This document shows positions 28,583 to 43,493 of a DNA stretch of 46,908 nt, piece after piece. The stretch's first letter is position 1. Each line of letters starts with the position of its first letter. Source of the DNA: Gallionella sp. (GTDB taxonomy: Bacteria; Pseudomonadota; Gammaproteobacteria; Burkholderiales; Gallionellaceae); the NCBI GenBank assembly GCA_030645775.1, contig JAUSLX010000166.1, positions 1 through 46,908 on the forward strand, given 5' to 3'. The position numbers were made by a program, and so were the translations under genes. Under the pieces are notes generated by a model. That model worked only from the letters and a program-made list of their open reading frames with translations, did no database searches and had not been told where the DNA came from.

Positions 28583-28662
28583 TACCCTTGAAACCACAAA
28601 AAAATAGTCGCCGATATTACCACCTTCGCGCTTCCCCCCCAACCTGTGCCACAATGCGCGCC

Positions 28663-30131
28663 ATGAGAACGATAAAAAAGACAAATCCAGGAAACGTTTC
28701 CGCGAAAGACGATGCAGCAAAGCCGCGTCGTGCCGGAGTCAAAACAACACAAAAGACAGACAGAGGCTCGGTAAAAACCGTTGCCGAAAAACCGCGGCGC
28801 GCCACGGACAAAACGACTGCGAAATCAGACTCGCGTGGCAGTTCAGCGAAGACGCCCGCCCCCGGACGAGGGGATGCGCTCAAACCGCGCCGTGCTGTAT
28901 CCAGGACTCCTGCCAAACAAAATTCACGTAGCGCGGCTGTGGAGACAAATGCGGTTAAACCGCGGCGCATCGGCACCAAGCTGACCCGGCTCCTGAGTTT
29001 AAATGTAGCGCCGGCCAAGCCCCCCGCCGGCACGCAAGTGAATATGGCAAAACCGCGTCATGCCGGAACTGAAACGCCCTCACTCACGCAATGGCTGCTG
29101 TATTGCCGCTCCGGCTTCGAGCAGGATTGCGCGCAGGAAACACTGCGTCAGGCACGCCTGCACAAGCCTGTCATCGCCGAACAGACCGACATCATTAACA
29201 ACAGCGGTTATGCCGTCGTCACACTCAACGACCAGCCTCTGACGTTCCGCGAACTGATTTTCGCGCGCCAGCTGATCCGTCTGCACCAGACCATAGATGC
29301 ATTGCCGGATCGTGACCGCCTGACACCGATACTCAACGCGATCACCGCGCTGCCCGGAAACTTTGGCGCGTTGTGGCTGGAAGTGCGGACACCAACGACG
29401 GCAAGACACTGTCCGCCTTCGTCCGGCGCTTCCAGCCCTTGCTGGAGGCGGCGCTGCGCGAACAGGGGCGCTTGCTGGATGACGTCAAGTCAGCGCGTTT
29501 GCACATTTTCTTCCCCGACAAAGCCTCCGTACTGATCGGCAGCAGCGATCCCTACAACAGCTCGGCAGCCCTGATGGGGATAGCGCGTCAGTCCATACCC
29601 GCCGAAGCACCGAGCCGCTCTACGCTGAAACTGGCCGAAGCCATCGAGACGTTCATGGATAAAAGCGAACAGACACGTTTGCTGCGCACCGGCATGACCG
29701 CAGTTGATCTGGGCGCCGCTCCCGGCGGCTGGACATGGCAGATGGTCAGTCGCGGCATCCGCGTCACGGCAGTGGACAACGGCCCGATGAAGGGTGTGCT
29801 GGCCAAACACCCGCTGGTCGAACATCTCAGGCAGGATGGCTTCAAATTCTCGCCGCGCAAAGCGGTGGACTGGCTGATCTGCGACATGGTCGAAAAACCC
29901 GCCAAAGTCGCCGAATTGATAGGCGCATGGTTCGTGGCAGGCTGGTGCAAGCACGCGATCTTCAACCTGAAGCTGCCGATGAAACAGCGCGTTATCGCGC
30001 TGGATGCCGCGCTGGGCGGCATCCGCACCCGTCTGGACGAGGAAGGCATCAGTTACAAATTACTGGCGAAACAGCTTTACCACGACCGCGAAGAAATCAC
30101 CGTATTTCTGACCAAAACCAAGAACCGCTAA
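28663..30131 (+). pseudogene. rlmM: 23S rRNA Cm2498 methyltransferase RlmM split by a 1-bp frameshift at ~29386, with long basic N-terminal extension
   Basis: LLYCRSGFEQDCAQE and LIFARQ in one frame; DTNDGK, APSRSTLKL, DLGAAPGGWT, CDMVEKP, FNLKLPMK, KQLYHDREE in the next. The break may be real or an assembly error. Confidence 0.82.
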
Positions 30132-30213: not shown

Positions 30214-30993
30214 TCAGATGTTCCGGTTCTTCTTGATCATATCGTAGGCAAGCTGAATCTCCTTGGCCTGCTCGGTCGCCATGGCGATCATGTCTTCCGG
30301 CATGCCCTGCCCGATCAGCTTGTCAGGGTGATATTGGCTGATCAGCTTGCGATAGGCGCGCTTAATCTCGACATCCGTGCTGTCTTTACTGACACCCAGC
30401 GCCTTATAAGCGTCGTCCAGTGCCTCCGCGACACTGGCCTGCCCGCCGGCGAAATGGGATTGATTCAGCACCATATCCATCAACTGGCGGAACGCGGCCT
30501 GATCGTAGCCGAGACGAGCGGCGATGTCGGTGAGCAAGGCTTCTTCCGCCGGATGAAAATGCCCGTCTGCCAACGCCATCACGAGCAGATAAACCAGCAA
30601 CATTTGCTTCAGATTTTTAGTGTGCCCGCAAACAGCCTGAAAGCGCTGGTATGTCGGTGCGATGTCAAAATCCGGCGCTGCGCCCTGTTTGAAGGAAGCA
30701 ATCGCCTGTGATCGATGCTGCTCAGTCATGCCCAGTTTTTGCATGAACTGCTCGACATGGGCGATCTCGTCCTGAGAAACATGCCCGTCTGCTTTGGCCA
30801 GTTTGCCCATCGAAATGAACACCGTCTCAAGAAAAACGGCCTGACGCAAGGCGTTTTGCAAGGGGTTGATCGCACCTGAACCATACGCCCTGATGCGATC
30901 GAAAAATGCCCCGGCGAACAGCCCGAGCAGCGCCCCGAAGAACCCTAAAAAATAATAACCCGCAATAAAACCTATGAGTTTGAACAAGACCAC
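30214..30993 (-). CDS. djlA: Co-chaperone DjlA
   Basis: N-terminal TM, TerB-like AKADG motif, C-terminal J domain with YHPDK. Confidence 0.92.
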   Translation of the reverse strand: MVLFKLIGFIAGYYFLGFFGALLGLFAGAFFDRIRAYGSGAINPLQNALRQAVFLETVFISMGKLAKADGHVSQDEIAHVEQFMQKLGMTEQHRSQAIASFKQGAAPDFDIAPTYQRFQAVCGHTKNLKQMLLVYLLVMALADGHFHPAEEALLTDIAARLGYDQAAFRQLMDMVLNQSHFAGGQASVAEALDDAYKALGVSKDSTDVEIKRAYRKLISQYHPDKLIGQGMPEDMIAMATEQAKEIQLAYDMIKKNRNI

Positions 30994-31224: not shown

Positions 31225-34101
31225 ATGGAGGAAAACAAAATGGCAAATGTGGACATCAAAACGATACTGTTAATGCGGGGCAACGTCGGCGTTGATGTCG
31301 CCGGGCTAAAGGTAGCCTTGCGCAAAGCGCTGGGTGCAGGTGCAGCGGCTTATGCCGGCTTGTCCGCCGGCGATGATTTCAACGCCGACACTCAGACAGC
31401 GGTGCGTGCCTGGCAGTCCAGCGTTGGCCTGGTGGCGGACGGCATCGCCGGGCCGCGCACCTTGTCCGCCCTAGGCATTACACCAGCCAATGTACTGGCT
31501 GTCAGCGTGGATACCACGCGGGTGAACGCGTTATTTCCCTACACCAAGACGTCCAACATTGCCAGAAATCTGCCTTATGTGACTGCGGCACTGGCCGCCT
31601 TCGGACTGACCGATGCAAACATGATCAGCACTGCACTGGGCACAATACGCGCCGAGACCGAGGGTTTCGTACCCATCGCCGAACTGCCTTCCCATTTTAA
31701 TACGCTGCCCGGTCAGGCCGCTTTCAGCGCCTATGAATACAAGCTGGGCAACAAAAATTCAGGGGATGGCGCACGCTACCGCGGGCGTGGCTTTATACAA
31801 TTAACCGGGCGAGATAACTACGAGAAATTCGGCAAGCTGCTCGATATTTCACTGGCGGACAACCCGGATTGCGCTTGCGCGCCGGAAGTGGCCGCCTGCC
31901 TGCTGGCCGCCTATCTGGATGCGCACCGGGACAGACTGAGCAAAGCGCTGGCCAAAGGCGACCTGAAGGCCGCACGCAAAGTAGTTAATGGCGGCAGCCA
32001 CGGGCTTGAGCGTTTTTCCGAAACCTTCCGCATGGCGCAGAAAAGCTGGGCCGCGCAACCGCTCGTCGCTGCGCGCGTCAGGGCAGCCGCTCCAGTCACG
32101 GCGCGGCGCGCCAACCTCAATGTAAGGCGTGACCCGGCAGATCTGCGCGACCGGCAATACATGCCACCGCCGCATTCTCTGCCACAGGTATTTCCATCGG
32201 ATGACGACATTCGGCACTTCATGGACAGTTATACCCGGGCCGGGCTCATTCTGGATCAGGGCCAGGAAGGCGCATGTACCGGTTTCGGACTGGCCTGCGT
32301 CATTAACTATCTGCGCTGGCGCTCTGCCGGGATGCCCAAACAACTCGAATCGGTCAGCCCGCGCATGCTATACAAATTCGCCCGGCGTTTCGATGAATAC
32401 GAGGGCGAGAACTATGATGGCTCAAGCTGCCGGGGTGCGCTCAAGGGCTGGTATCACAACGGGGTCTGCCTGGAATCTATATGGCCTTACGCCGGAGGAG
32501 ACGACACGCTGCCGACATCCGGCTGGGACAGCGATGCGACCGAACGGACACTGGGGGTGTATTACCGCATAGACCCTCAGGCCATCACCGATGTGCAGAC
32601 AGCCATCCTGGAAGTCGGCGCGATATATGCTTCATCCTATACCCATCGGGGCTGGGACAGAGTCGAGGCCGGCGACAAAACGCCTGCTTCCCACACCGCC
32701 CTTCCGGTGATCGCCTATGATGGCTATCCCTCACGCAGCGGCGGGCACGCCTTCGCGCTGGTGGGTTACAACCGCATCGGCTTCGTGATACAGAACTCCT
32801 GGGGCGATCAGTGGGGAATCGGCGGATTTGCCGTGATCAGCTATGCCGACTGGATAATGCATGCCATGGATGTCTGGGTTGCCGCAATGGGTGTTCCGGG
32901 AGTCGTCTCCGGTCGCCTTGCCGGCGGAGAAGTGGCGGGCGCTGCCGCCGCTGCCACCCGTGACAACTGGTGGGACGAAGCAACAGCCTATCAGCACAGT
33001 ATCGTGCTGGGCAACAATGGCTGCGTCAGTCGCTACGACAAACTGGATGGTGTTACGCGCACCCTGCAAAATCAGGCATGCGTTCTGCCGGACGACTGGT
33101 TCCGACGGAACGGGCAAGAGAAAAAACGTCTGGTGATCTATGCGCACGGCGGCCTGAACAGTGAAAAAGCCGCCATACAACGGGCTCAGGCGATGGGTCG
33201 GTATTTCCTCGGCAACGGCTGTTATCCCCTGTTCCTGATATGGAAGAGCGGGCTGCTGGAATCGCTGGGCAATATTCTGGCGGATAAATCCGCTTCCGGT
33301 GCGGCAGGTAAAGCGGGGGGAGCCCGCGACTGGCTGAACGACAAGATTACCGATCCCGTCGTCGAAAAAACCATAGGACGTCCACTCGCCCGCCCGCTGT
33401 GGAGCGAAATGAAGGAAAACGCTGAACTCGCGGCGGAAAGCGGACGAGGTGGCGACCTGTTGACCGAAGCGCTGCGTTCGCTATCGGGCAGCTGGGGAGA
33501 CGCCTTCGAGATACACCTCATGGGCCATTCCGCCGGTTCCATCGCTCTGGGCAGATTGCTCGGCAATCTGGCGCAGAAGAATCTGATCGACAACGTCAAA
33601 TCCGTCCATCTGTACGCCCCGGCCTGCACCGTCGCCTTTGCCAACCGGCACTATGCGCCACAAGCCGAAATCATGAAGAAACTGCATCTGGACATTCTGG
33701 CAGATCAGCGCGAGCAGGATGACAACGTGGCGTACATCTACCAGAAATCCCTGCTCTACTTCGTTTCCAACGCGCTGGAGGCAGATTTACGCATGCCTGT
33801 CCTCGGCCTGGAAAACGTTTACAACCCGCATTATTCAGGCTGGAATGGTTCGTCCAGCACCGCTGAAGCCCTTACCAACTGGTGCAACGCAGTGGAAATC
33901 AGCAAACTGAAGAACCGCCTTACCGTCCACCACGAAGATAAAATCCTCACCCGGCGCGGCAACGGCAGCGATAAACCCGACAAGATCGCAAACGCATCGC
34001 ATGGCGGCTTCGACAACAATATCGACATCCTCAGCAAAACGCTGGAACGGATCACCGGCGCGCCGCTCGCACTGCCGGTCGACGATCTGGTCGGGTTCTG
34101 A
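31225..34101 (+). CDS. Multidomain protein: PG-binding + GH19 lysozyme/chitinase + papain-like C1 peptidase + alpha/beta-hydrolase
   Basis: TAVRAWQ..GLVADGIAGPRT; RAETEGF and YRGRGFIQLTGRDNY; DQGQEGACTGF, GGHAF, QNSWG; YAHGGLN, GHSAGS, HGGFDN. Start may be 31240. Confidence 0.82.
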   Translation: MEENKMANVDIKTILLMRGNVGVDVAGLKVALRKALGAGAAAYAGLSAGDDFNADTQTAVRAWQSSVGLVADGIAGPRTLSALGITPANVLAVSVDTTRVNALFPYTKTSNIARNLPYVTAALAAFGLTDANMISTALGTIRAETEGFVPIAELPSHFNTLPGQAAFSAYEYKLGNKNSGDGARYRGRGFIQLTGRDNYEKFGKLLDISLADNPDCACAPEVAACLLAAYLDAHRDRLSKALAKGDLKAARKVVNGGSHGLERFSETFRMAQKSWAAQPLVAARVRAAAPVTARRANLNVRRDPADLRDRQYMPPPHSLPQVFPSDDDIRHFMDSYTRAGLILDQGQEGACTGFGLACVINYLRWRSAGMPKQLESVSPRMLYKFARRFDEYEGENYDGSSCRGALKGWYHNGVCLESIWPYAGGDDTLPTSGWDSDATERTLGVYYRIDPQAITDVQTAILEVGAIYASSYTHRGWDRVEAGDKTPASHTALPVIAYDGYPSRSGGHAFALVGYNRIGFVIQNSWGDQWGIGGFAVISYADWIMHAMDVWVAAMGVPGVVSGRLAGGEVAGAAAAATRDNWWDEATAYQHSIVLGNNGCVSRYDKLDGVTRTLQNQACVLPDDWFRRNGQEKKRLVIYAHGGLNSEKAAIQRAQAMGRYFLGNGCYPLFLIWKSGLLESLGNILADKSASGAAGKAGGARDWLNDKITDPVVEKTIGRPLARPLWSEMKENAELAAESGRGGDLLTEALRSLSGSWGDAFEIHLMGHSAGSIALGRLLGNLAQKNLIDNVKSVHLYAPACTVAFANRHYAPQAEIMKKLHLDILADQREQDDNVAYIYQKSLLYFVSNALEADLRMPVLGLENVYNPHYSGWNGSSSTAEALTNWCNAVEISKLKNRLTVHHEDKILTRRGNGSDKPDKIANASHGGFDNNIDILSKTLERITGAPLALPVDDLVGF

Positions 34102-38867: not shown

Positions 38868-39713
38868 ATGGAACTACGCCACATCACGCAACAACAGCTT
38901 GCAGGACTCTTGCCCCAACGTCCGAAAGACAGCCACAAAGCCCTGTTCGGCGCGGTCTGTGTTGTGGGCGGCGCGGCGGGCATGACGGGGGCCGCCCTGT
39001 TGGCAGGGCGCGCTGCGCTCAAGCTGGGCGCAGGTTGCATACATGTCGGCCTGCTGACGGACAACGCGCCGGCGGTGGATTTTGTGCAACTGGAACTGAT
39101 GCTGCATCAGGCAGCGGCTGCGCTAAAGTTGCCTAACATCACTGTTTTGGCAGCGGGTTGTGGCATGGGAACATCGCTGGCAGCACATGATCTGCTTCTC
39201 GATGCGCTAAATAGCGATATTCCGCTGGTGCTGGATGCGGATGCGCTAAATCTGATTACTATACACTCAGATTTGCGCGACTTAGCTGTTGCACGTAAAG
39301 CCGATACCGTACTCACCCCGCACCCCGGCGAAGCCGCGCGCCTGCTCAATTGCAGCACTGCAGAAATTCAGGCTGACCGCGTTGTGGCGGTGCAAAAAAT
39401 TAACCGGATATTTGCCTGCTCCGTGTTACTGAAGGGCGCCGACAGCCTGTGCGCCACCCGCGACGGACAACTGTTCGTTAATCACACCGGCAACCCCGGC
39501 ATGAGCGCCCCCGGCATGGGCGATGTACTGGCGGGCATGATTGCCGCCTTCATTGCGCAAGGGCTGAAAGCGGATGATGCACTGCTGCTGGCGGTACACC
39601 TGCACGGTGCGGCAGGCGACGAACTGGCGAAACAAACCGCTATCGGCATGACCGCCACGGAAGTCACCGATCAGGCGCGACAACTTTTAAATATATGGGC
39701 ATCCCAATCGTAG
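38868..39713 (+). CDS. nnrD: ADP-dependent NAD(P)H-hydrate dehydratase
   Basis: RPKDSHK, GAALLAG..A.K.GAG, LDADAL, LTPHPGEAARL, GMGDVLAG. Confidence 0.92.
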   Translation: MELRHITQQQLAGLLPQRPKDSHKALFGAVCVVGGAAGMTGAALLAGRAALKLGAGCIHVGLLTDNAPAVDFVQLELMLHQAAAALKLPNITVLAAGCGMGTSLAAHDLLLDALNSDIPLVLDADALNLITIHSDLRDLAVARKADTVLTPHPGEAARLLNCSTAEIQADRVVAVQKINRIFACSVLLKGADSLCATRDGQLFVNHTGNPGMSAPGMGDVLAGMIAAFIAQGLKADDALLLAVHLHGAAGDELAKQTAIGMTATEVTDQARQLLNIWASQS

Positions 39714-39737
39714 GTTGGGCAGTTTTGTCCAACCTAT
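39710..39737 (+). repeat. GTAG-type REP palindrome
   Basis: GTAGGTTGGGCA-gttt-TGTCCAACCTAT; its GTAG contains the nnrD stop. Confidence 0.75.
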
Positions 39738-39756
39738 CAGAATTTGGTTGGCGTCC

Positions 39757-40233
39757 TTATTGTTTCGTAATTTTCCAATACCTCGCACAGGCTTTAGGAA
39801 GTGGCTCGGGTGTATCAGTCTTTTTTAACTCAAACTCACTGCAGCCCCCAGTTTTCACTCGCCCACTCATTTCATTTTCTTCGTCAATTTGTCCGCTTAG
39901 ATTAACCGTTCCATATCCAGATGGCTGAACAATCCAGCTCCTACCAATAAATTCTACCCGTTGCGATTTTTTGTTGTAAATACCATCCATCTCAAAACAA
40001 CCTTCAGGAACATTTGGATTTTCGATAAGTGGATAGAAGTGAAACAATGCACGAACATGCTTTCTATCGGTTTGCTCGGTATGTAAAGTTAACCCGCTAT
40101 TCCCTTGTTGGCATGTGTAGCGTCCTTCCCATGCACCGGATATCGTACCCTCCGCATAAGCTGCACTGACTGCAAATGCCAAGCTGATAATGCCGTTAAC
40201 AACTAAAACCATGAAAGTTTTTCTTTTCATCAA
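39757..40233 (-). CDS. Hypothetical secreted protein
   Basis: Signal-peptide-like N-terminus (AYA cleavage motif), four Cys, WEGRYTC motif; AT-rich. Confidence 0.7.
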   Translation of the reverse strand: MMKRKTFMVLVVNGIISLAFAVSAAYAEGTISGAWEGRYTCQQGNSGLTLHTEQTDRKHVRALFHFYPLIENPNVPEGCFEMDGIYNKKSQRVEFIGRSWIVQPSGYGTVNLSGQIDEENEMSGRVKTGGCSEFELKKTDTPEPLPKACARYWKITKQ

Positions 40234-40336
40234 ACACTCCGAAGTGATAAAAAATTGTGCAGTTACAATTAGATAGAAAATTTTTAAAAACTTGCCAGTA
40301 TGTATTGTCGCTTCACTCTAAAAGTAATTGTCACCA

Positions 40337-40645
40337 TTACAGCAGCGATCGCCTATAGCGAGCCACCAACTTTGCCGCAACCTTCTTACTTTCATGTTTA
40401 TTTTTGGCAACTTTAGCTTGAGCCGCCACAGTGTCATTCTGGACGACCGTCACAAATTCCTGCGTGACCGATTCTGTTCTCTTGCTTGCAGAACCCTCGA
40501 TCTCGCCTTTCAGTACCGTCAAAACTTTCTCCACCTGCGAAGCCCCATAAATGAATGATTGGTTGTAGGCAACTGTAATATCTACCACCGCGCCACTATG
40601 CTTACCCGCAATCTTGATCGTCACCGCATAGTCATCATAAGTGCA
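40337..40645 (-). pseudogene. 5'-truncated gene remnant
   Basis: Protein-like frame with an in-frame TAG at 40646-40648, next to REP remnants; no credible start or RBS. Confidence 0.45.
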
Positions 40646-40662
40646 CTAGACAATCCCAGCGC

Positions 40663-40805
40663 GTATGGCGTAATGTGAGGTGTCAATAAGCGAAGCGCAC
40701 TGCACCGGATGTTTTTATTTGGCGCAATAATAATTGCGCCGTACGGGTTGTTTGCTAAATCAGTGTCCATCCCAATCTTAGGGTGGGCACGTTGTGCCCA
40801 CCCTA
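40663..40805. repeat. Cluster of degenerate GTAG-type REPs
   Basis: CAATAAGCGAAGCGCACTGCACC, GGCGCAAT-aata-ATTGCGCCGTAC and perfect TAGGGTGGGCAC-gtt-GTGCCCACCCTA (40779-40805). Confidence 0.7.
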
Positions 40806-40811
40806 TCGCTC

Positions 40812-41246
40812 TCAATGCGCACGCTTTTTATTCACAACCACAAACCCTTGCATGTCACCCGCAACCTTCACTGGCAAATCAAGCATCCGATCACCCAACT
40901 CAAAAGTTCGCGCAACTGTTGTTTCGGAATTCGATTGAATAATGACACGAGTAGCATCTTTATCCGTTTTCTCTGCCGTCATCTGCAGTGTAAGTTTATC
41001 GTCGCTAAATAATGCCGTTGCTGAATCCTCGTTTTGCGAACGAATGAATCCGCCATTTGTCCGCGCCACCTTGCGAAATAAATTAACAGCCTCTTTCACG
41101 GAACCCTTACCTTCCAGCGTCACAGTTGTCGAATTTCCTTTGGTAAATAAATCCGCCCCTGGAACTGAAGAACCAAATTCAGCACAACCGAAAAGTGAAA
41201 CAGAACTCAACAACGCAAGCATCAACAAACTTTTTTTCATGGCCAT
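40812..41246 (-). CDS. Putative lipoprotein (possibly DUF3568-like)
   Basis: MKKSLLMLALLSSVSLFGC lipobox-like N-terminus. Confidence 0.7.
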   Translation of the reverse strand: MAMKKSLLMLALLSSVSLFGCAEFGSSVPGADLFTKGNSTTVTLEGKGSVKEAVNLFRKVARTNGGFIRSQNEDSATALFSDDKLTLQMTAEKTDKDATRVIIQSNSETTVARTFELGDRMLDLPVKVAGDMQGFVVVNKKRAH

Positions 41247-41393
41247 TCCCTAACAATTTAATTCGCGATTAAAAATCCTACTTTTGCAGGCAACTTTGCC
41301 AGCAAAAAGAGTGCGTTATTTATGCTTGGTGATAGATGCCACCGCATTTGTGGCAGAGCTGCGCACAATCTTCAAGTCCGCTACAAAGCGGAA

Positions 41394-41765
41394 TTACCCA
41401 CGGCTGATAATTGCATTATTTAAAGCATCGACAACACGCGTTACAAAAACACCATCCTTCGATGTATATCCCTTTGACGCTCCTGATGCAGATGTAGTAA
41501 CAACAATGTGTTTGGCCTTCAAAAACATAAAAATCATGCCCGCGATTACCCAAAACACCAAAGCTGTCATTACTGAACTTGACAAAATCATCATCCCAAA
41601 AAAAATCAAAGGGACTATTAAGAACCATTTCACATCAATTTTTTGTGTAGTCACGGATGTAATACCGCTCAAGGCAACTGTTTGGGGTTGCTTCCGAACA
41701 GTAAATATATAACGAGCATTGGTAACAGTTACGCCTCTTTCATTCAAAAACGATTTTTCTTCCAT
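41394..41765 (-). CDS. Small membrane protein, DUF6232-like
   Basis: GVTVTNAR...TVALSGITSV followed by two TM helices; AAGGGGG RBS. Confidence 0.65.
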   Translation of the reverse strand: MEEKSFLNERGVTVTNARYIFTVRKQPQTVALSGITSVTTQKIDVKWFLIVPLIFFGMMILSSSVMTALVFWVIAGMIFMFLKAKHIVVTTSASGASKGYTSKDGVFVTRVVDALNNAIISRG

Positions 41766-41873
41766 CTTGCCCCCTTAAGTTTTAAGTTTATTTGAAGCCT
41801 GTAGTTATTTTCGAATACGACATAAACGATACGTCACACCAGGGCAGCGCCAGCGCAACCTGTCGCATTATGT

Positions 41874-41930
41874 CTATCGGCTATTATTTATGCAATAGCC
41901 TTTGCCGTATGACGGATATATAGCTGATAG
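41874..41930. promoter_or_regulatory. Putative operator repeats for the XRE regulator
   Basis: CTATCGGCTAT (41874-41884) and ATAGCTGATAG (41920-41930) are 10/11 inverted; internal GCTATT-N8-AATAGC. Confidence 0.45.
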
Positions 41931-41949
41931 CAATACAATCTTAAGCATT

Positions 41950-42291
41950 ATGGAAGAACGCATCAAAGAAGCGCGCAAAGCACTGGGATGGAGTCAAGCG
42001 GATTTGGCTCGGCGCATGTATGTCACGCAACCTTCGGTGGCAGACTGGGAGTCTGGGCGCAAGGCCCCTCATACGAAAAACCTAGCGCGACTGGCCATAA
42101 TGCTGGGGGTGAATTTTGAGTGGCTTTCCACCGGGCTCGGCAAAATGATTTCTTCCTCAACACTCAGCACGCAAGAATCCACCACCAATGACTGGATACT
42201 GCCGGAAGAGCTCAGCCTGTTAAGCACCTACTCTCGCCTCAAACCCAAGCAGCGGACAGCACTGTTGGGATTTCTGGAATCCTTGGAGTAG
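41950..42291 (+). CDS. XRE-family HTH regulator (phage-repressor-like N-domain)
   Basis: RIKEARKALGWSQADLA..VTQPSVADWESG..LGVNFEWL.TG. Confidence 0.88.
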   Translation: MEERIKEARKALGWSQADLARRMYVTQPSVADWESGRKAPHTKNLARLAIMLGVNFEWLSTGLGKMISSSTLSTQESTTNDWILPEELSLLSTYSRLKPKQRTALLGFLESLE

Positions 42292-42336
42292 CGGAGCAGG
42301 CGAGGCACAACTTAACTTGTCGGCACGGAGAGGTAC

Positions 42337-42609
42337 TTGGAACCAGAAGTTGCGTTTGGAATAGTGCTGCGGGAATTGCGAAAACAGCGTGCGCTGTCGC
42401 AAGAAGCCCTCGCACATGAATCCGACCCGGAGCGCAACTACATTTCACTGCTGGAACTTGGCCGCAACAGCGCAAGCATCAAAATCATCTTCAAGCTATC
42501 GCCCGTTCTGGGCGTGTCGATTTCCAAATTTATGGGCCAAGTCGAAATTATTTTGGTCAGCGCCAAAAAAACTTCACCCTGCAGCTCCGCATCATCAAGC
42601 GAATCCTGA
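42337..42609 (+). CDS. XRE-family HTH protein (controller-protein-like)
   Basis: FGIVLRELRK..LSQEALA..RNYISLLELG; TTG start with GGAGAGG RBS. Confidence 0.8.
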   Translation: MEPEVAFGIVLRELRKQRALSQEALAHESDPERNYISLLELGRNSASIKIIFKLSPVLGVSISKFMGQVEIILVSAKKTSPCSSASSSES

Positions 42610-42793
42610 CTCTCTAGCTCACAGGAGAAAACAGGCCAGGCCCAAGCTCTAAGTTTTGGATTGATTTTTTCGTGCCGCACAAAATTTCGCGGGTTGCTTT
42701 AACCAGCCAAATCGTGTCATTTTCTATTGCCACTTCGTTCATATTTGCTATTATGGTGCGAATTATTCCTACCATTAGCTCGAAGGAACCCCA

Positions 42794-43081
42794 ATGGCTA
42801 CCGCCGAAAAAATCAGCATTGCCTTGCCACCAGAAATGGTTCATATCGTCCGTGGCGCGGTTGCTACCGGCGAATATGCATCGAGCAGCGAAGTCATTCG
42901 TGATGCGTTACGCGACTGGACACACAAGCGCAACTTGCGCCTACAAGGCGTTACCGAATTGCGCCGAGTCTGGCAGGAAGCCCTGATCGACAAAACTCCC
43001 GGCATTTCGCCAAACGACGTACTCGATCGACTGGAACGCAAGTATCAAACTATCGCCGATGGTGCGAATATAGCAAAATGA
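42794..43081 (+). CDS. ParD-like ribbon-helix-helix antitoxin
   Basis: KISIALP..V.TGEYASSSEVIRDALR; overlaps the toxin start. Confidence 0.88.
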   Translation: MATAEKISIALPPEMVHIVRGAVATGEYASSSEVIRDALRDWTHKRNLRLQGVTELRRVWQEALIDKTPGISPNDVLDRLERKYQTIADGANIAK

Positions 43082-43374
43082 TGCAACTGGAACTTTCACG
43101 CAATATTGAAGGCGATCTGGATGACATCGCAGACTATATCGCACAAGATAACCCGCATCGTGCCGTTACATTTATCCAGGACATACGCGCAAAGTTTTCC
43201 GACATCCAGCGTAACCCACTGATCTATCAACTTCGTCCCGATATTGGTGAGGAAGCACGCATGGCAACCATCGGCAACCATGCAATTCTTTTCCGTCTCA
43301 CGGGAGAAGCCATCAGAATTGAACGCATTGTTTACGGTGGTCGTGATTTACCAGGGATTTTCGAACTTGAATGA
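43078..43374 (+). CDS. ParE/RelE-family toxin
   Basis: DLDDIADYIAQDNP..A, RIERIVYGGRD; ATGA coupling with the antitoxin. Confidence 0.88.
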   Translation: MMQLELSRNIEGDLDDIADYIAQDNPHRAVTFIQDIRAKFSDIQRNPLIYQLRPDIGEEARMATIGNHAILFRLTGEAIRIERIVYGGRDLPGIFELE

Positions 43375-43430
43375 ACCGTCCCATAGCGCGTGGTGGCGTC
43401 AGAAAGTGCAAACGTCCGCGGTAACATGAT

Positions 43431-43458
43431 GTCGGAACGCCTCCGGCTTCCGACCTAC
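43431..43458 (-). repeat. GTAG-type REP palindrome
   Basis: Minus strand GTAGGTCGGAAGCCGGAGGCGTTCCGAC; followed by heptamer-like units at 43463-43483. Confidence 0.7.
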
Positions 43459-43493
43459 CCAACTATTTACCACTCACCACTTACGAGCCTTTC

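What the first reader, a model, noticed from the sequence alone, without database searches (positions are those of the whole stretch)
31225..34101. Orphan four-module protein: PG-binding / GH19 / papain-like Cys protease / alpha-beta hydrolase
Seen: one uninterrupted 958-aa ORF with apparently intact catalytic motifs for three unrelated hydrolases. These are GH19 (Glu144 in RAETEGF, YRGRGFIQLTG), C1 protease (Gln345, Cys351, His508, Asn524) and alpha/beta-hydrolase (GHS769AG, C-terminal HGGFDN), behind a PG-binding domain. Ala-rich linkers (AARVRAAAPVTARRA, GGEVAGAAAAAT) join the modules. There is no signal peptide, and the gene stands alone between djlA and tpm. Known: PG-binding+GH19 is a phage endolysin or secreted-effector architecture, and protease-activated effectors occur in anti-phage cell-death systems. 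Inference: a self-processing polyprotein whose protease releases a wall-lytic and a lipolytic module, acting as a one-gene lysis/defence or antagonism system. I do not recognise this architecture as characterised. Best candidate for a new system here.
Basis: partly seen in the sequence, partly recalled or inferred. Interest (0 to 1): 0.78.

Follow-up and report, generated by a model that had tools for sequence, protein, structure and literature searches.

The report
Lysozyme–protease–lipase one-gene lysis zymogen
This bacterial gene joins a wall-binding domain, a lysozyme-type enzyme, a papain-type protease and a lipase-type enzyme in one protein; it belongs to a widespread, apparently undescribed protease–lipase family that has repeatedly picked up unrelated wall-cutting enzymes, and it likely works as a self-cutting switch that bursts its own cell.

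Summary
The four modules are real: PG-binding, GH19 endolysin-type, xylellain-like C1A protease and alpha/beta-hydrolase. All catalytic residues are conserved and under purifying selection (dN/dS about 0.11). It is not a chimera: 71 of the 80 best GTDB loci carry the intact gene, across Beta- and Gammaproteobacteria and Desulfobulbales. The start is probably 31240.

The conserved unit is the C1A + hydrolase core, a large family (590 clusters at 50% identity) that mostly stands alone. Its variable slot has been filled independently by unrelated peptidoglycan hydrolases: GH19, GH24, Amidase_2, muramidase and Tlde1. The same hydrolase is also fused to caspase, clostripain, a STAND NTPase, and as Amidase–hydrolase–caspase. 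So wall hydrolase, hydrolase and cysteine protease recur together with non-homologous parts.

No signal peptide, T6SS, holin or immunity neighbour, or phage copy was found. Defence-island enrichment was not shown (p=0.25).

Best reading (about 45%): a cytoplasmic self-processing zymogen whose lipase breaches the inner membrane, letting the lysozyme lyse the producer. It resembles the caspase-activated hydrolase death effectors but is not a member. Processing, trigger and anti-phage role are untested.

The parts
31227..31231 (+). Shine-Dalgarno GGAGG, 8 nt before the probable start ATG at 31240
   Evidence: sequence; first ATG absent in L026
31240..34101 (+). CDS of the four-module protein (953 aa from the probable start; ORF opens at 31225, 958 aa)
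31258..31479 (+). Peptidoglycan-binding domain (res ~12-85)
   Evidence: Pfam PF01471 E 1e-7; pLDDT 80-90
31507..32049 (+). GH19 endolysin-type domain (res ~95-275), E144 (31654) and E153 (31681)
   Evidence: the E-x8-E pattern in 116 of 120 near homologues; dN/dS 0.12
32050..32118 (+). Linker 1, Ala/Arg-rich, variable length, ending in a conserved basic RR-x-x-L-N-V junction; predicted cleavage region. Core-only relatives begin about here.
   Evidence: (105 of 118 with the basic junction); cleavage is inference
32119..32904 (+). Xylellain-like C1A cysteine protease with its N-terminal D-x-x-D-x-R-D segment; Q345 (32257), C351 (32275), H508 (32746), N524 (32794)
   Evidence: C 134/136, H 136/136, N 136/136 rows
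32905..32970 (+). Linker 2, flexible (pLDDT <50), variable across the family; predicted cleavage region
   Evidence: cleavage is inference
32971..34098 (+). Alpha/beta-hydrolase (lipase/esterase-like, DUF900-adjacent); S769 (33529), candidate acid D833 (33721), H926 (34000)
   Evidence: fold Z 10-12; S 132/136, D 131/136, H 129/136 rows; DUF900 lead on 15-19% of cluster members
33286..33330 (+). Variable low-confidence loop (res ~688-702) between two helices inserted before the nucleophile strand; candidate activating cut site in the lid
   Evidence: pLDDT <50 at res 695-698; variable in 89 relatives; role is inference
30214..30993 (-). djlA, left flank of the insertion slot (not part of the system)
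   Evidence: Pfam TerB+DnaJ; only 67 bp between the matches to djlA and tpm in G018/L134
34172..34831 (-). tpm (thiopurine methyltransferase), right flank (not part of the system)
   Evidence: Pfam TPMT

Best explanation
The protein is a four-enzyme-module fusion without a signal peptide that likely acts as a latent, self-processing lysis device of its own cell: once triggered, the papain-type protease would cut the linkers and the hydrolase lid, the freed hydrolase would attack inner-membrane lipids, and the breach would let the wall-binding lysozyme reach and cut the peptidoglycan. Shown: the domains and intact catalytic residues; purifying selection on all three enzymes; the obligate-looking coupling of this hydrolase family to a cysteine protease; and the repeated, independent recruitment of peptidoglycan hydrolases. 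Inferred: zymogen state (the segment before the protease aligns with the N-terminal segment of xylellain, which I recall blocks its active site), autoprocessing, a lipid substrate, and the order membrane-then-wall (the lipase standing in for a holin). In core-only relatives the hydrolase alone would be the death effector; the wall hydrolase is an add-on that turns death into lysis. The trigger is unknown. There is no sensor domain, so it would be direct: a phage protein or protease, a nucleotide ligand, or envelope stress. Phage infection is the most likely context but is not shown.
For: (1) Protease coupling with non-homologous partners. The same hydrolase (HMM iE 1e-71 to 1e-78) is fused to C1A here, to caspase (P0274), to clostripain (P0273), behind a STAND-type NTPase plus C1A (P0272), and as Amidase_2-hydrolase-caspase (L275). 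(2) Variable slot. Of 123 complete core representatives, 25 carry a >90-aa extension and 14 of those are peptidoglycan hydrolases: GH19 x7 (one C-terminal), Amidase_2 x4, muramidase, Tlde1, and GH24 (below cut-off). They need >=9 changes on a FastTree tree, and a GH19 and an amidase form are sisters. Unfused versions occur as adjacent genes: Amidase_2 (L110), CHAP/TIGR02594-C1-caspase (S. meliloti pSymA), M15 peptidases (L051, L108). Two other fusions are phospholipase-C-type phosphoesterases. (3) No export route found: 120 of 121 genes lack a signal-like N-terminus; TssC in 8 of 49 carriers and not in this genome; no recurring partner gene. A cytoplasmic wall hydrolase needs a membrane breach, which the fused lipase-fold enzyme could supply (inference). 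(4) Precedent: a caspase-cut alpha/beta-hydrolase zymogen kills E. coli (Evans 2025, section read). (5) Accessory and mobile: 13 of 81 genus genomes, 73-77% identity across phyla, in a slot that in relatives holds TA, RM-type, DarT or patatin/lipase genes, or nothing. (6) A minority of loci sit beside CHAT-STAND-TPR (L069), NB-ARC-TPR (L077), caspases (L042, L043, L089, L105), trypsin (L045) or MPE+CHAT (L022).
Against: No PADLOC model matches the protein. Most loci lie among housekeeping genes: RM genes were 6 of 233 neighbours within two genes against 1 of 150 control genes, p=0.25. There is no sensor domain. The sequence is conserved (dN/dS 0.11-0.12) rather than diversifying as many immune genes do. 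The R-G cut motif of the characterised hydrolase is not enriched in the lid loop (15 of 89, background 0.14). No conserved cleavage motif was found in linker 2 or the loop. pTM 0.77 of the core model suggests the protease and hydrolase pack together, which fits a stable two-domain enzyme as well as a zymogen. About 80% of complete representatives (98 of 123) have no extra domain. The loci were found with C1-containing queries, so 'hydrolase always with a protease' is partly circular.
Confidence: 0.45

Rival explanations
1. An outward weapon: the protein is released by lysis of a subpopulation or in membrane vesicles, self-processes outside, and attacks neighbouring bacteria with lipase, lysozyme and protease.
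For: Constant processing core with exchangeable toxin-like domains, including Tlde1 and phospholipase C, as in polymorphic toxins with papain- or caspase-like releasing peptidases (Zhang 2012, passages). Little defence-island signal. One core gene lies beside eCIS sheath and tube genes (L111).
Against: No recurring immunity gene. No T6SS or sheath found in this genome. No signal peptide. A GH19 enzyme outside the cell must still cross the target's outer membrane.
Confidence: 0.22
2. The wall hydrolase is a release device, as in holin/peptidoglycan-hydrolase (type 10) secretion: a holin supplied in trans lets it open the wall so that the protease-hydrolase core leaves the cell and acts on an external target such as a protist or biofilm.
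For: The recruited hydrolases (GH19, GH24, muramidase, Amidase_2, M15, CHAP) are the phage-lysin repertoire (family knowledge). Leaderless cargo is typical of such systems (abstract starts only). Xylellain-like proteases are proposed to be secreted in plant pathogens (passages).
Against: No holin-like gene recurs beside the gene. Most family members have no wall hydrolase at all. Holins elsewhere in the genome were not searched.
Confidence: 0.12
3. A non-lethal envelope-recycling or remodelling enzyme: protease, acyl-hydrolase and lysozyme work together as one unprocessed protein on lipoprotein-peptidoglycan fragments or dead-cell debris.
For: Stand-alone gene in ordinary neighbourhoods. Uniform purifying selection. 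Packed two-domain core.
Against: Patchy distribution and cross-phylum transfer. Fusions to STAND, caspase and clostripain. Cytoplasmic location away from polymeric peptidoglycan.
Confidence: 0.15

Closest known systems
Caspase-associated alpha/beta-hydrolase death effector (Kaur 2020 PMC7159879; LcHydrolase-LcCaspase, Evans 2025 bioRxiv 10.1101/2025.11.14.688446)
   Same: An alpha/beta-hydrolase of unknown substrate tied to a cysteine protease. By eye, the same strand order with a helical insert before the G-H-S motif. Relatives are linked to STAND sensors and caspases.
   Different: There the hydrolase is a separate 296-aa gene cut twice at R-G by a caspase. Here it is a 376-aa domain fused behind a papain-fold C1A protease, without an enriched R-G site, without a sensor, and with a peptidoglycan hydrolase attached. 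No caspase was found in this genome.
Xylellain (PDB 3OIS), short bacterial C1A protease
   Same: Closest structure (Z 23.8), with the same catalytic Q/C/H/N and the N-terminal D-x-x-D-x-R-D segment.
   Different: Xylellain is single-domain, 26% identical, with unknown substrate. Multidomain bacterial C1A proteins were explicitly left unanalysed in the 2023 survey PMC10380794.
Modular GH19 endolysins (SPN1S 4OK7, PWe1/PWe2) and the T6SS effector TseP (8XCL)
   Same: GH19 fold with two Glu nine residues apart, plus a PG-binding domain.
   Different: Here the GH19 is the N-terminal third of a chromosomal protein, with no holin, spanin or T6SS context. The core was not found in phage collections.
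Polymorphic toxins with autoprocessing peptidases (Zhang 2012, PMC3482391)
   Same: Constant peptidase-containing part with exchangeable enzymatic domains.
   Different: The variable domain is mostly N-terminal; there is no trafficking domain, repeat stalk, immunity gene or cassette array; and the constant part holds a second active enzyme.
Holin/peptidoglycan-hydrolase (type 10) secretion and phage lysis cassettes
   Same: A leaderless wall hydrolase of phage type that must cross the inner membrane.
   Different: No holin gene recurs nearby; the hydrolase is fused to its putative activator and to a lipase-fold enzyme.

Membership tests
GH19 endolysin-type domain | GH19 fold and two catalytic glutamates | tested here: met
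   Foldseek 4ok7 E 1e-7, 9ms7 TMt 0.83; E144/E153 align with Glu residues of 4ok7 and are invariant; Pfam GH19 score is below its cut-off
GH19 endolysin-type domain | Muramidase activity on peptidoglycan | not testable with these tools
   needs an assay
C1A papain family, xylellain type | Papain fold with Gln/Cys/His/Asn | tested here: met
C1A papain family, xylellain type | N-terminal segment that blocks the active site (recalled for xylellain) | tested here: inconclusive
Alpha/beta-hydrolase superfamily | Fold, G-x-S-x-G elbow, Ser-Asp-His triad | tested here: met
   Z 10-12 to many members; S769, D833, H926 conserved; the identity of the acid is inferred from conservation
DUF900 (PF05990) | Score above the Pfam cut-off | tested here: inconclusive
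   no hit for the query; 1 of 36 scanned relatives above the cut-off (P0127) and 2 just below; Atlas clusters carry DUF900 on 15-19% of members
Caspase-associated alpha/beta-hydrolase module (Kaur 2020, Evans 2025) | Separate hydrolase gene next to a caspase | tested here: not met
   fused to C1A; no Peptidase_C14 found in the 92%-complete genome
Caspase-associated alpha/beta-hydrolase module (Kaur 2020, Evans 2025) | Conserved R-G cleavage sites | tested here: not met
   R-G in the lid loop of 15 of 89 rows, background 0.14; present in the caspase- and clostripain-fused P0274 and P0273
Caspase-associated alpha/beta-hydrolase module (Kaur 2020, Evans 2025) | Sequence-level kinship with LcHydrolase | not tested
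   only a by-eye motif comparison with the supplementary table row
Caspase-associated alpha/beta-hydrolase module (Kaur 2020, Evans 2025) | Toxicity that depends on cleavage | not testable with these tools
   needs an experiment
Known anti-phage defence system | Match to a defence-protein model | tested here: not met
   0 PADLOC families at E<=1 (library dated 2023)
Known anti-phage defence system | Enrichment in defence islands | tested here: inconclusive
   6 of 233 vs 1 of 150 RM genes, p=0.25; only two genes each side were scanned, families were deduplicated, and the control is small
T6SS effector | T6SS in the genome; VgrG/PAAR/immunity neighbours | tested here: not met
   TssC not found in G000 or in 12 genus carriers; 8 of 49 carriers; no such neighbours recur
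Phage lysis cassette / type 10 secretion | Adjacent holin; phage or prophage context | tested here: not met
Phage lysis cassette / type 10 secretion | Holin elsewhere in the genome | not tested
   no genome-wide holin search was run
Polymorphic toxin | Constant peptidase part with exchangeable enzyme domains | tested here: met
Polymorphic toxin | Trafficking domain and adjacent immunity gene | tested here: not met
   (only 26 of 71 intact loci have any co-directional neighbour within 130 nt)

The most novel reading that the evidence does not exclude
A one-gene, holin-free and sensor-free lysis system. A papain-type protease is both trigger detector and releasing enzyme, a protease-licensed lipase replaces the holin, and a freely exchangeable peptidoglycan hydrolase bursts the cell. 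It would be a bacterial programmed-lysis (immune or explosive) pathway in which a wall hydrolase is the host-encoded effector, and the first role assigned to a family of at least 590 protein clusters.
Probability: 0.3. Interest if true: 0.85.

Novelty: new variant of a known kind. Interest (0 to 1): 0.64.

Why it matters
Protease-gated effectors are a main theme in bacterial immunity, but the described partners are caspase, trypsin, subtilisin and CHAT proteases acting on separate genes. This family adds a papain-type protease fused to its presumed effector. It occurs in about 8% of sampled genomes of this order (34 of 401) and 5% of one alphaproteobacterial order (16 of 301). The repeated recruitment of five unrelated wall hydrolases points to the cell envelope as the target, which also makes the unknown substrate of such hydrolases testable. 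A single gene with three point-mutable active sites, present in cultured strains (Dechloromonas denitrificans, Pseudomonas nitroreducens, Dyella japonica), is an easy experiment. If it lyses without a holin, it is a new way for bacteria to burst themselves.

Tried and rejected
Assembly chimera: rejected. Phage endolysin or prophage gene: rejected; only short C1A proteins matched in phage and viral collections. T6SS or eCIS cargo as the rule: not supported; one eCIS-adjacent core locus only. A conserved partner gene: none; no neighbour family recurs in more than 9 of the 87 loci and those are housekeeping. Shared R-G cut site with LcHydrolase: not enriched. Full-length AlphaFold run on a shallow alignment: poor for residues 277-958 (pLDDT 51), so only its N-terminal part was used; the core was remodelled on 136 rows. 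IQ-TREE did not finish; the tree is FastTree only, so its stars deserve limited trust, and no AU test was run. The group table compares fusion types only with each other and shows no clustering; the counts of 9 and 15 changes come, with P0123 left out as a probable fragment. The domain-pair complex prediction was never run, so there is no verdict. NCBIfam gave no hit above cut-off. Promoter and terminator scan: nothing above chance. Expression: one RNA run (X1, share 0.05) has contigs of related strains, mostly 85-95% alike, across the gene; contigs cannot show transcription, so this is not used. The hydrolase-only protein search returned mostly partial proteins on short contigs whose context could not be read; stand-alone hydrolase genes are not excluded. 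P0242's N-terminal domain resembles unnamed phage proteins and was not counted as a wall hydrolase. Earlier scan findings: none returned. Literature searches found no paper describing this architecture. Most subscription papers are not in the library, and the Kaur 2020 source data and the Evans supplementary PDF and zip were not seen and may list such neighbourhoods.
Full report
Observation. The ORF at 31225-34101(+) is intact and 958 aa long. The likely start is 31240: a GGAGG lies 8 nt upstream, and the 94%-identical gene in L026 lacks the first ATG. Pfam finds PG_binding_1 and Peptidase_C1, with GH19 below its cut-off. PDB sequence hits are phage GH19 endolysins and xylellain. A model of the N-terminal part matches GH19 endolysins. 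A model of residues 295-958 built on 136 sequences (pLDDT 89, pTM 0.77) matches xylellain (Z 23.8) and alpha/beta-hydrolases (Z 10-12). E144, E153, Q345, C351, H508, N524, S769, D833 and H926 are invariant in 33 full-length homologues. Against 12 close homologues, dN/dS is 0.12, 0.11 and 0.12 in the three enzyme domains and 0.29 in the linkers. All three enzymes are therefore probably active.

It is a real, mobile gene. Of 120 listed homologues, 117 cover at least 99% of the query. In GTDB, 509 of 548 pattern hits encode a relative. Of the 80 best loci, 71 hold an intact gene of 930 aa or more, and the six motif tests pass in 67-71 of 71; they come from Nitrosomonadales (21), Rhodocyclales (12), Desulfobulbales (12), Burkholderiales (9) and several gammaproteobacterial orders. 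The nearest named relatives are Gallionella MAGs. Identity of 73-77% to Desulfobulbales and Buttiauxella genes implies transfer across phyla (inference). The core occurs in 13 of 81 genomes of the genus, 34 of 401 of the order, 11 of 401 of the phylum and 16 of 301 of an alphaproteobacterial order. The slot upstream of djlA is variable: in G018 djlA and tpm are adjacent. Among the 20 relatives examined there, plus G015 and G024, the slot holds TA pairs, an RM-like gene, DarT with a helicase, patatin/lipase genes, other genes, or nothing (several named by eye).

The conserved unit is the protease-hydrolase core. A search of 1.84 billion representatives with residues 295-958 gave 590 clusters at E<=1e-30; the best 150 were listed. 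Of these, 123 have a complete C1 domain and at least 200 aa of hydrolase; 98 are core-only and 25 have an extension over 90 aa. Fourteen extensions are peptidoglycan hydrolases: GH19 in seven (five in the query's clade, one other N-terminal, one C-terminal), Amidase_2 in four, one muramidase, one Tlde1 and one GH24 below cut-off. The others are two phosphoesterases of the phospholipase C type, DUF7362/7379, a Vps62-like domain, two unassigned N-terminal domains and five short or unassigned extensions. On a FastTree tree of the core, the wall-hydrolase state needs 9 changes, and a GH19 form and an amidase form are sisters at 99. Different folds in one slot cannot share an origin, so the recruitment is recurrent whatever the exact topology. 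The list is ranked by similarity to the query, which favours its own GH19 clade. Genomic loci add a GH19-fused (L232) and a muramidase-fused (L233) core, and unfused pairs: Amidase_2-SH3 directly upstream (L110), a PG-binding protein directly upstream (L023, L109), an M15 peptidase directly downstream (L051), and CHAP/TIGR02594-C1-caspase on S. meliloti pSymA.

The hydrolase is tied to cysteine proteases. Among longer proteins (3 hits of 7983 candidates), the same hydrolase domain precedes a clostripain (P0273) or a caspase (P0274), or follows an AAA_16/STAND-type region and C1A (P0272). A relative of P0274, L275, encodes Amidase_2-hydrolase-caspase in one 928-aa protein. That is the same three functions built from a different wall hydrolase and a different protease, and it is the strongest sign that the parts work together. 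In the loci scanned, 129 genes had both domains, and hydrolase-only hits looked like fragments. That set was found with C1-containing queries, so it does not exclude free hydrolase genes.

What is missing. No signal-like N-terminus was seen in 120 of 121 genes (simple hydropathy rule). TssC, a phage-type sheath and a caspase were not found in this 92%-complete genome, and TssC was found in 8 of 49 carriers. No neighbour family recurs beyond housekeeping genes. The core was not found in phage or viral collections; 9 of 27 matching plasmid records cover at least 80% of it, mostly in rhizobia. PADLOC has no model for the protein. Within two genes of the family, 6 of 233 deduplicated neighbours were RM genes against 1 of 150 control genes from 20 arbitrary regions (150 of 156 called), p=0.25. 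A minority of four-module loci lie next to conflict-type genes: caspases (L042, L043, L089, L105), CHAT-STAND-TPR (L069), NB-ARC-TPR (L077) and trypsin (L045). Core-only loci add MPE+CHAT (L022), eCIS genes (L111) and caspase/trypsin clusters in rhizobia. Most of the core-only loci examined sit among ordinary genes.

Mechanism. A leaderless wall hydrolase cannot reach its substrate unless the inner membrane is breached. The fused partner is a lipase-fold enzyme that appears bound to a protease. The closest experimental precedent is a caspase-cut alpha/beta-hydrolase zymogen that kills E. coli, with substrate unknown (Evans 2025; abstract, introduction, section 7 and one supplementary row seen), first noted as a caspase neighbour in Kaur 2020 (passages). 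I therefore infer this order: protease activation; cuts at the basic junction before the protease (105 of 118 near homologues keep it; core-only relatives start about there), in linker 2 or in the lid loop; membrane damage; wall lysis. The segment before the protease aligns with xylellain's N-terminal segment. That this segment blocks the active site, and that a ribonucleotide regulates xylellain, is recalled from Leite 2013, which is not held (only its title was seen). Against this reading: no sensor, no defence-island enrichment, conservative evolution, and no shared cut motif (R-G in 15 of 89 loops, background 0.14). I give it 0.45, the outward weapon 0.22, envelope recycling 0.15 and type-10-like release 0.12.

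Comparison and novelty. It works like the protease-activated hydrolase effectors but fails their defining features (separate gene, caspase, R-G sites). It is not a T6SS effector, a phage lysin cassette or a classical polymorphic toxin by the tests listed. Searches found no description of the architecture. Passages of Kaur 2021, Zhang 2012, the Lipocone paper and an Arsenophonus paper do not describe it, and the 2023 papain survey says it left multidomain bacterial C1A proteins aside (passages). Type-10 secretion papers were seen only as a listing with abstract starts. Unseen supplements (Kaur 2020 source data; Evans PDF and zip) may hold such neighbourhoods. Verdict: a new variant of a known kind, interest 0.64, with about a 30% chance that it is a distinct holin-free lysis system.

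Noticed in passing
window 28588-30131 (+): rlmM is split over two frames; one base is missing relative to L019 and L027, which have a single ORF. It may be an assembly error or a pseudogene.
   Followed up: partly
window 39706-43466: Low-GC insert absent from the close relative L019, with small unassigned ORFs, XRE-type regulators and a ParD/ParE pair at 42794-43374.
   Followed up: partly
L126-L145, L020, L024, L029 (upstream of djlA): The djlA upstream site is an insertion slot in the genus: TA pairs, an RM-like gene, an ABC-ATPase-like cluster (L145, named by eye; no Pfam hit), DarT with a helicase, patatin with a lipase. Two distant members of this family (G015 core-only and the four-module gene) landed near it.
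   Followed up: partly
L275:9185-11971: Amidase_2 / same hydrolase / caspase fusion, preceded by a 727-aa gene without a Pfam hit that resembles the N-terminal half of P0274, and by a haem peroxidase gene.
   Followed up: partly
proteins P0273, P0274 (L272:7001-11326), residues 1-750: A large unassigned N-terminal domain shared by the clostripain- and caspase-fused forms; a possible sensor or pore-forming part.
   Followed up: no
protein P0242, residues 30-240: N-terminal domain resembling unnamed phage proteins (score 0.94) with a weak SLT lead; perhaps an unannotated lysozyme family.
   Followed up: partly
L023:10191-11144, L109:7910-8866: PG-binding domain plus an unassigned catalytic-looking domain, 12-20 nt upstream of a core gene; no Pfam or PDB hit for its C-terminal part.
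   Followed up: partly
L046, L057, L071, L104, L238, L275: Haem-enzyme genes (DyP-like, animal haem peroxidase, and an unassigned ~400-aa family) lie beside the family in several loci; a link to fatty-acid oxidation downstream of a lipase is possible.
   Followed up: no
L043:5812-14745: Cluster of caspase, four-module gene, three unassigned genes and a second C1 peptidase in a Desulfobulbaceae MAG.
   Followed up: partly
L069:4379-8931 and L077:4872-7611: Small helical gene plus CHAT-STAND-TPR or NB-ARC-TPR directly upstream of the four-module gene (82 and 21 nt gaps): possible sensors supplied in cis.
   Followed up: partly
L020:11400-12197, L111:12952-15539: Lipoprotein-like genes with a helical partner gene downstream of family members; unassigned.
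   Followed up: no
L086:13751-14173 (same as L241:13538-13960): A second, partial copy of the hydrolase 3' end lies 2 kb downstream of the intact gene, beyond a PD-(D/E)XK transposase-family gene.
   Followed up: no
L230:11083-13614: Paracoccus plasmid protein with trypsin fused to the same C1A type but no hydrolase domain.
   Followed up: no
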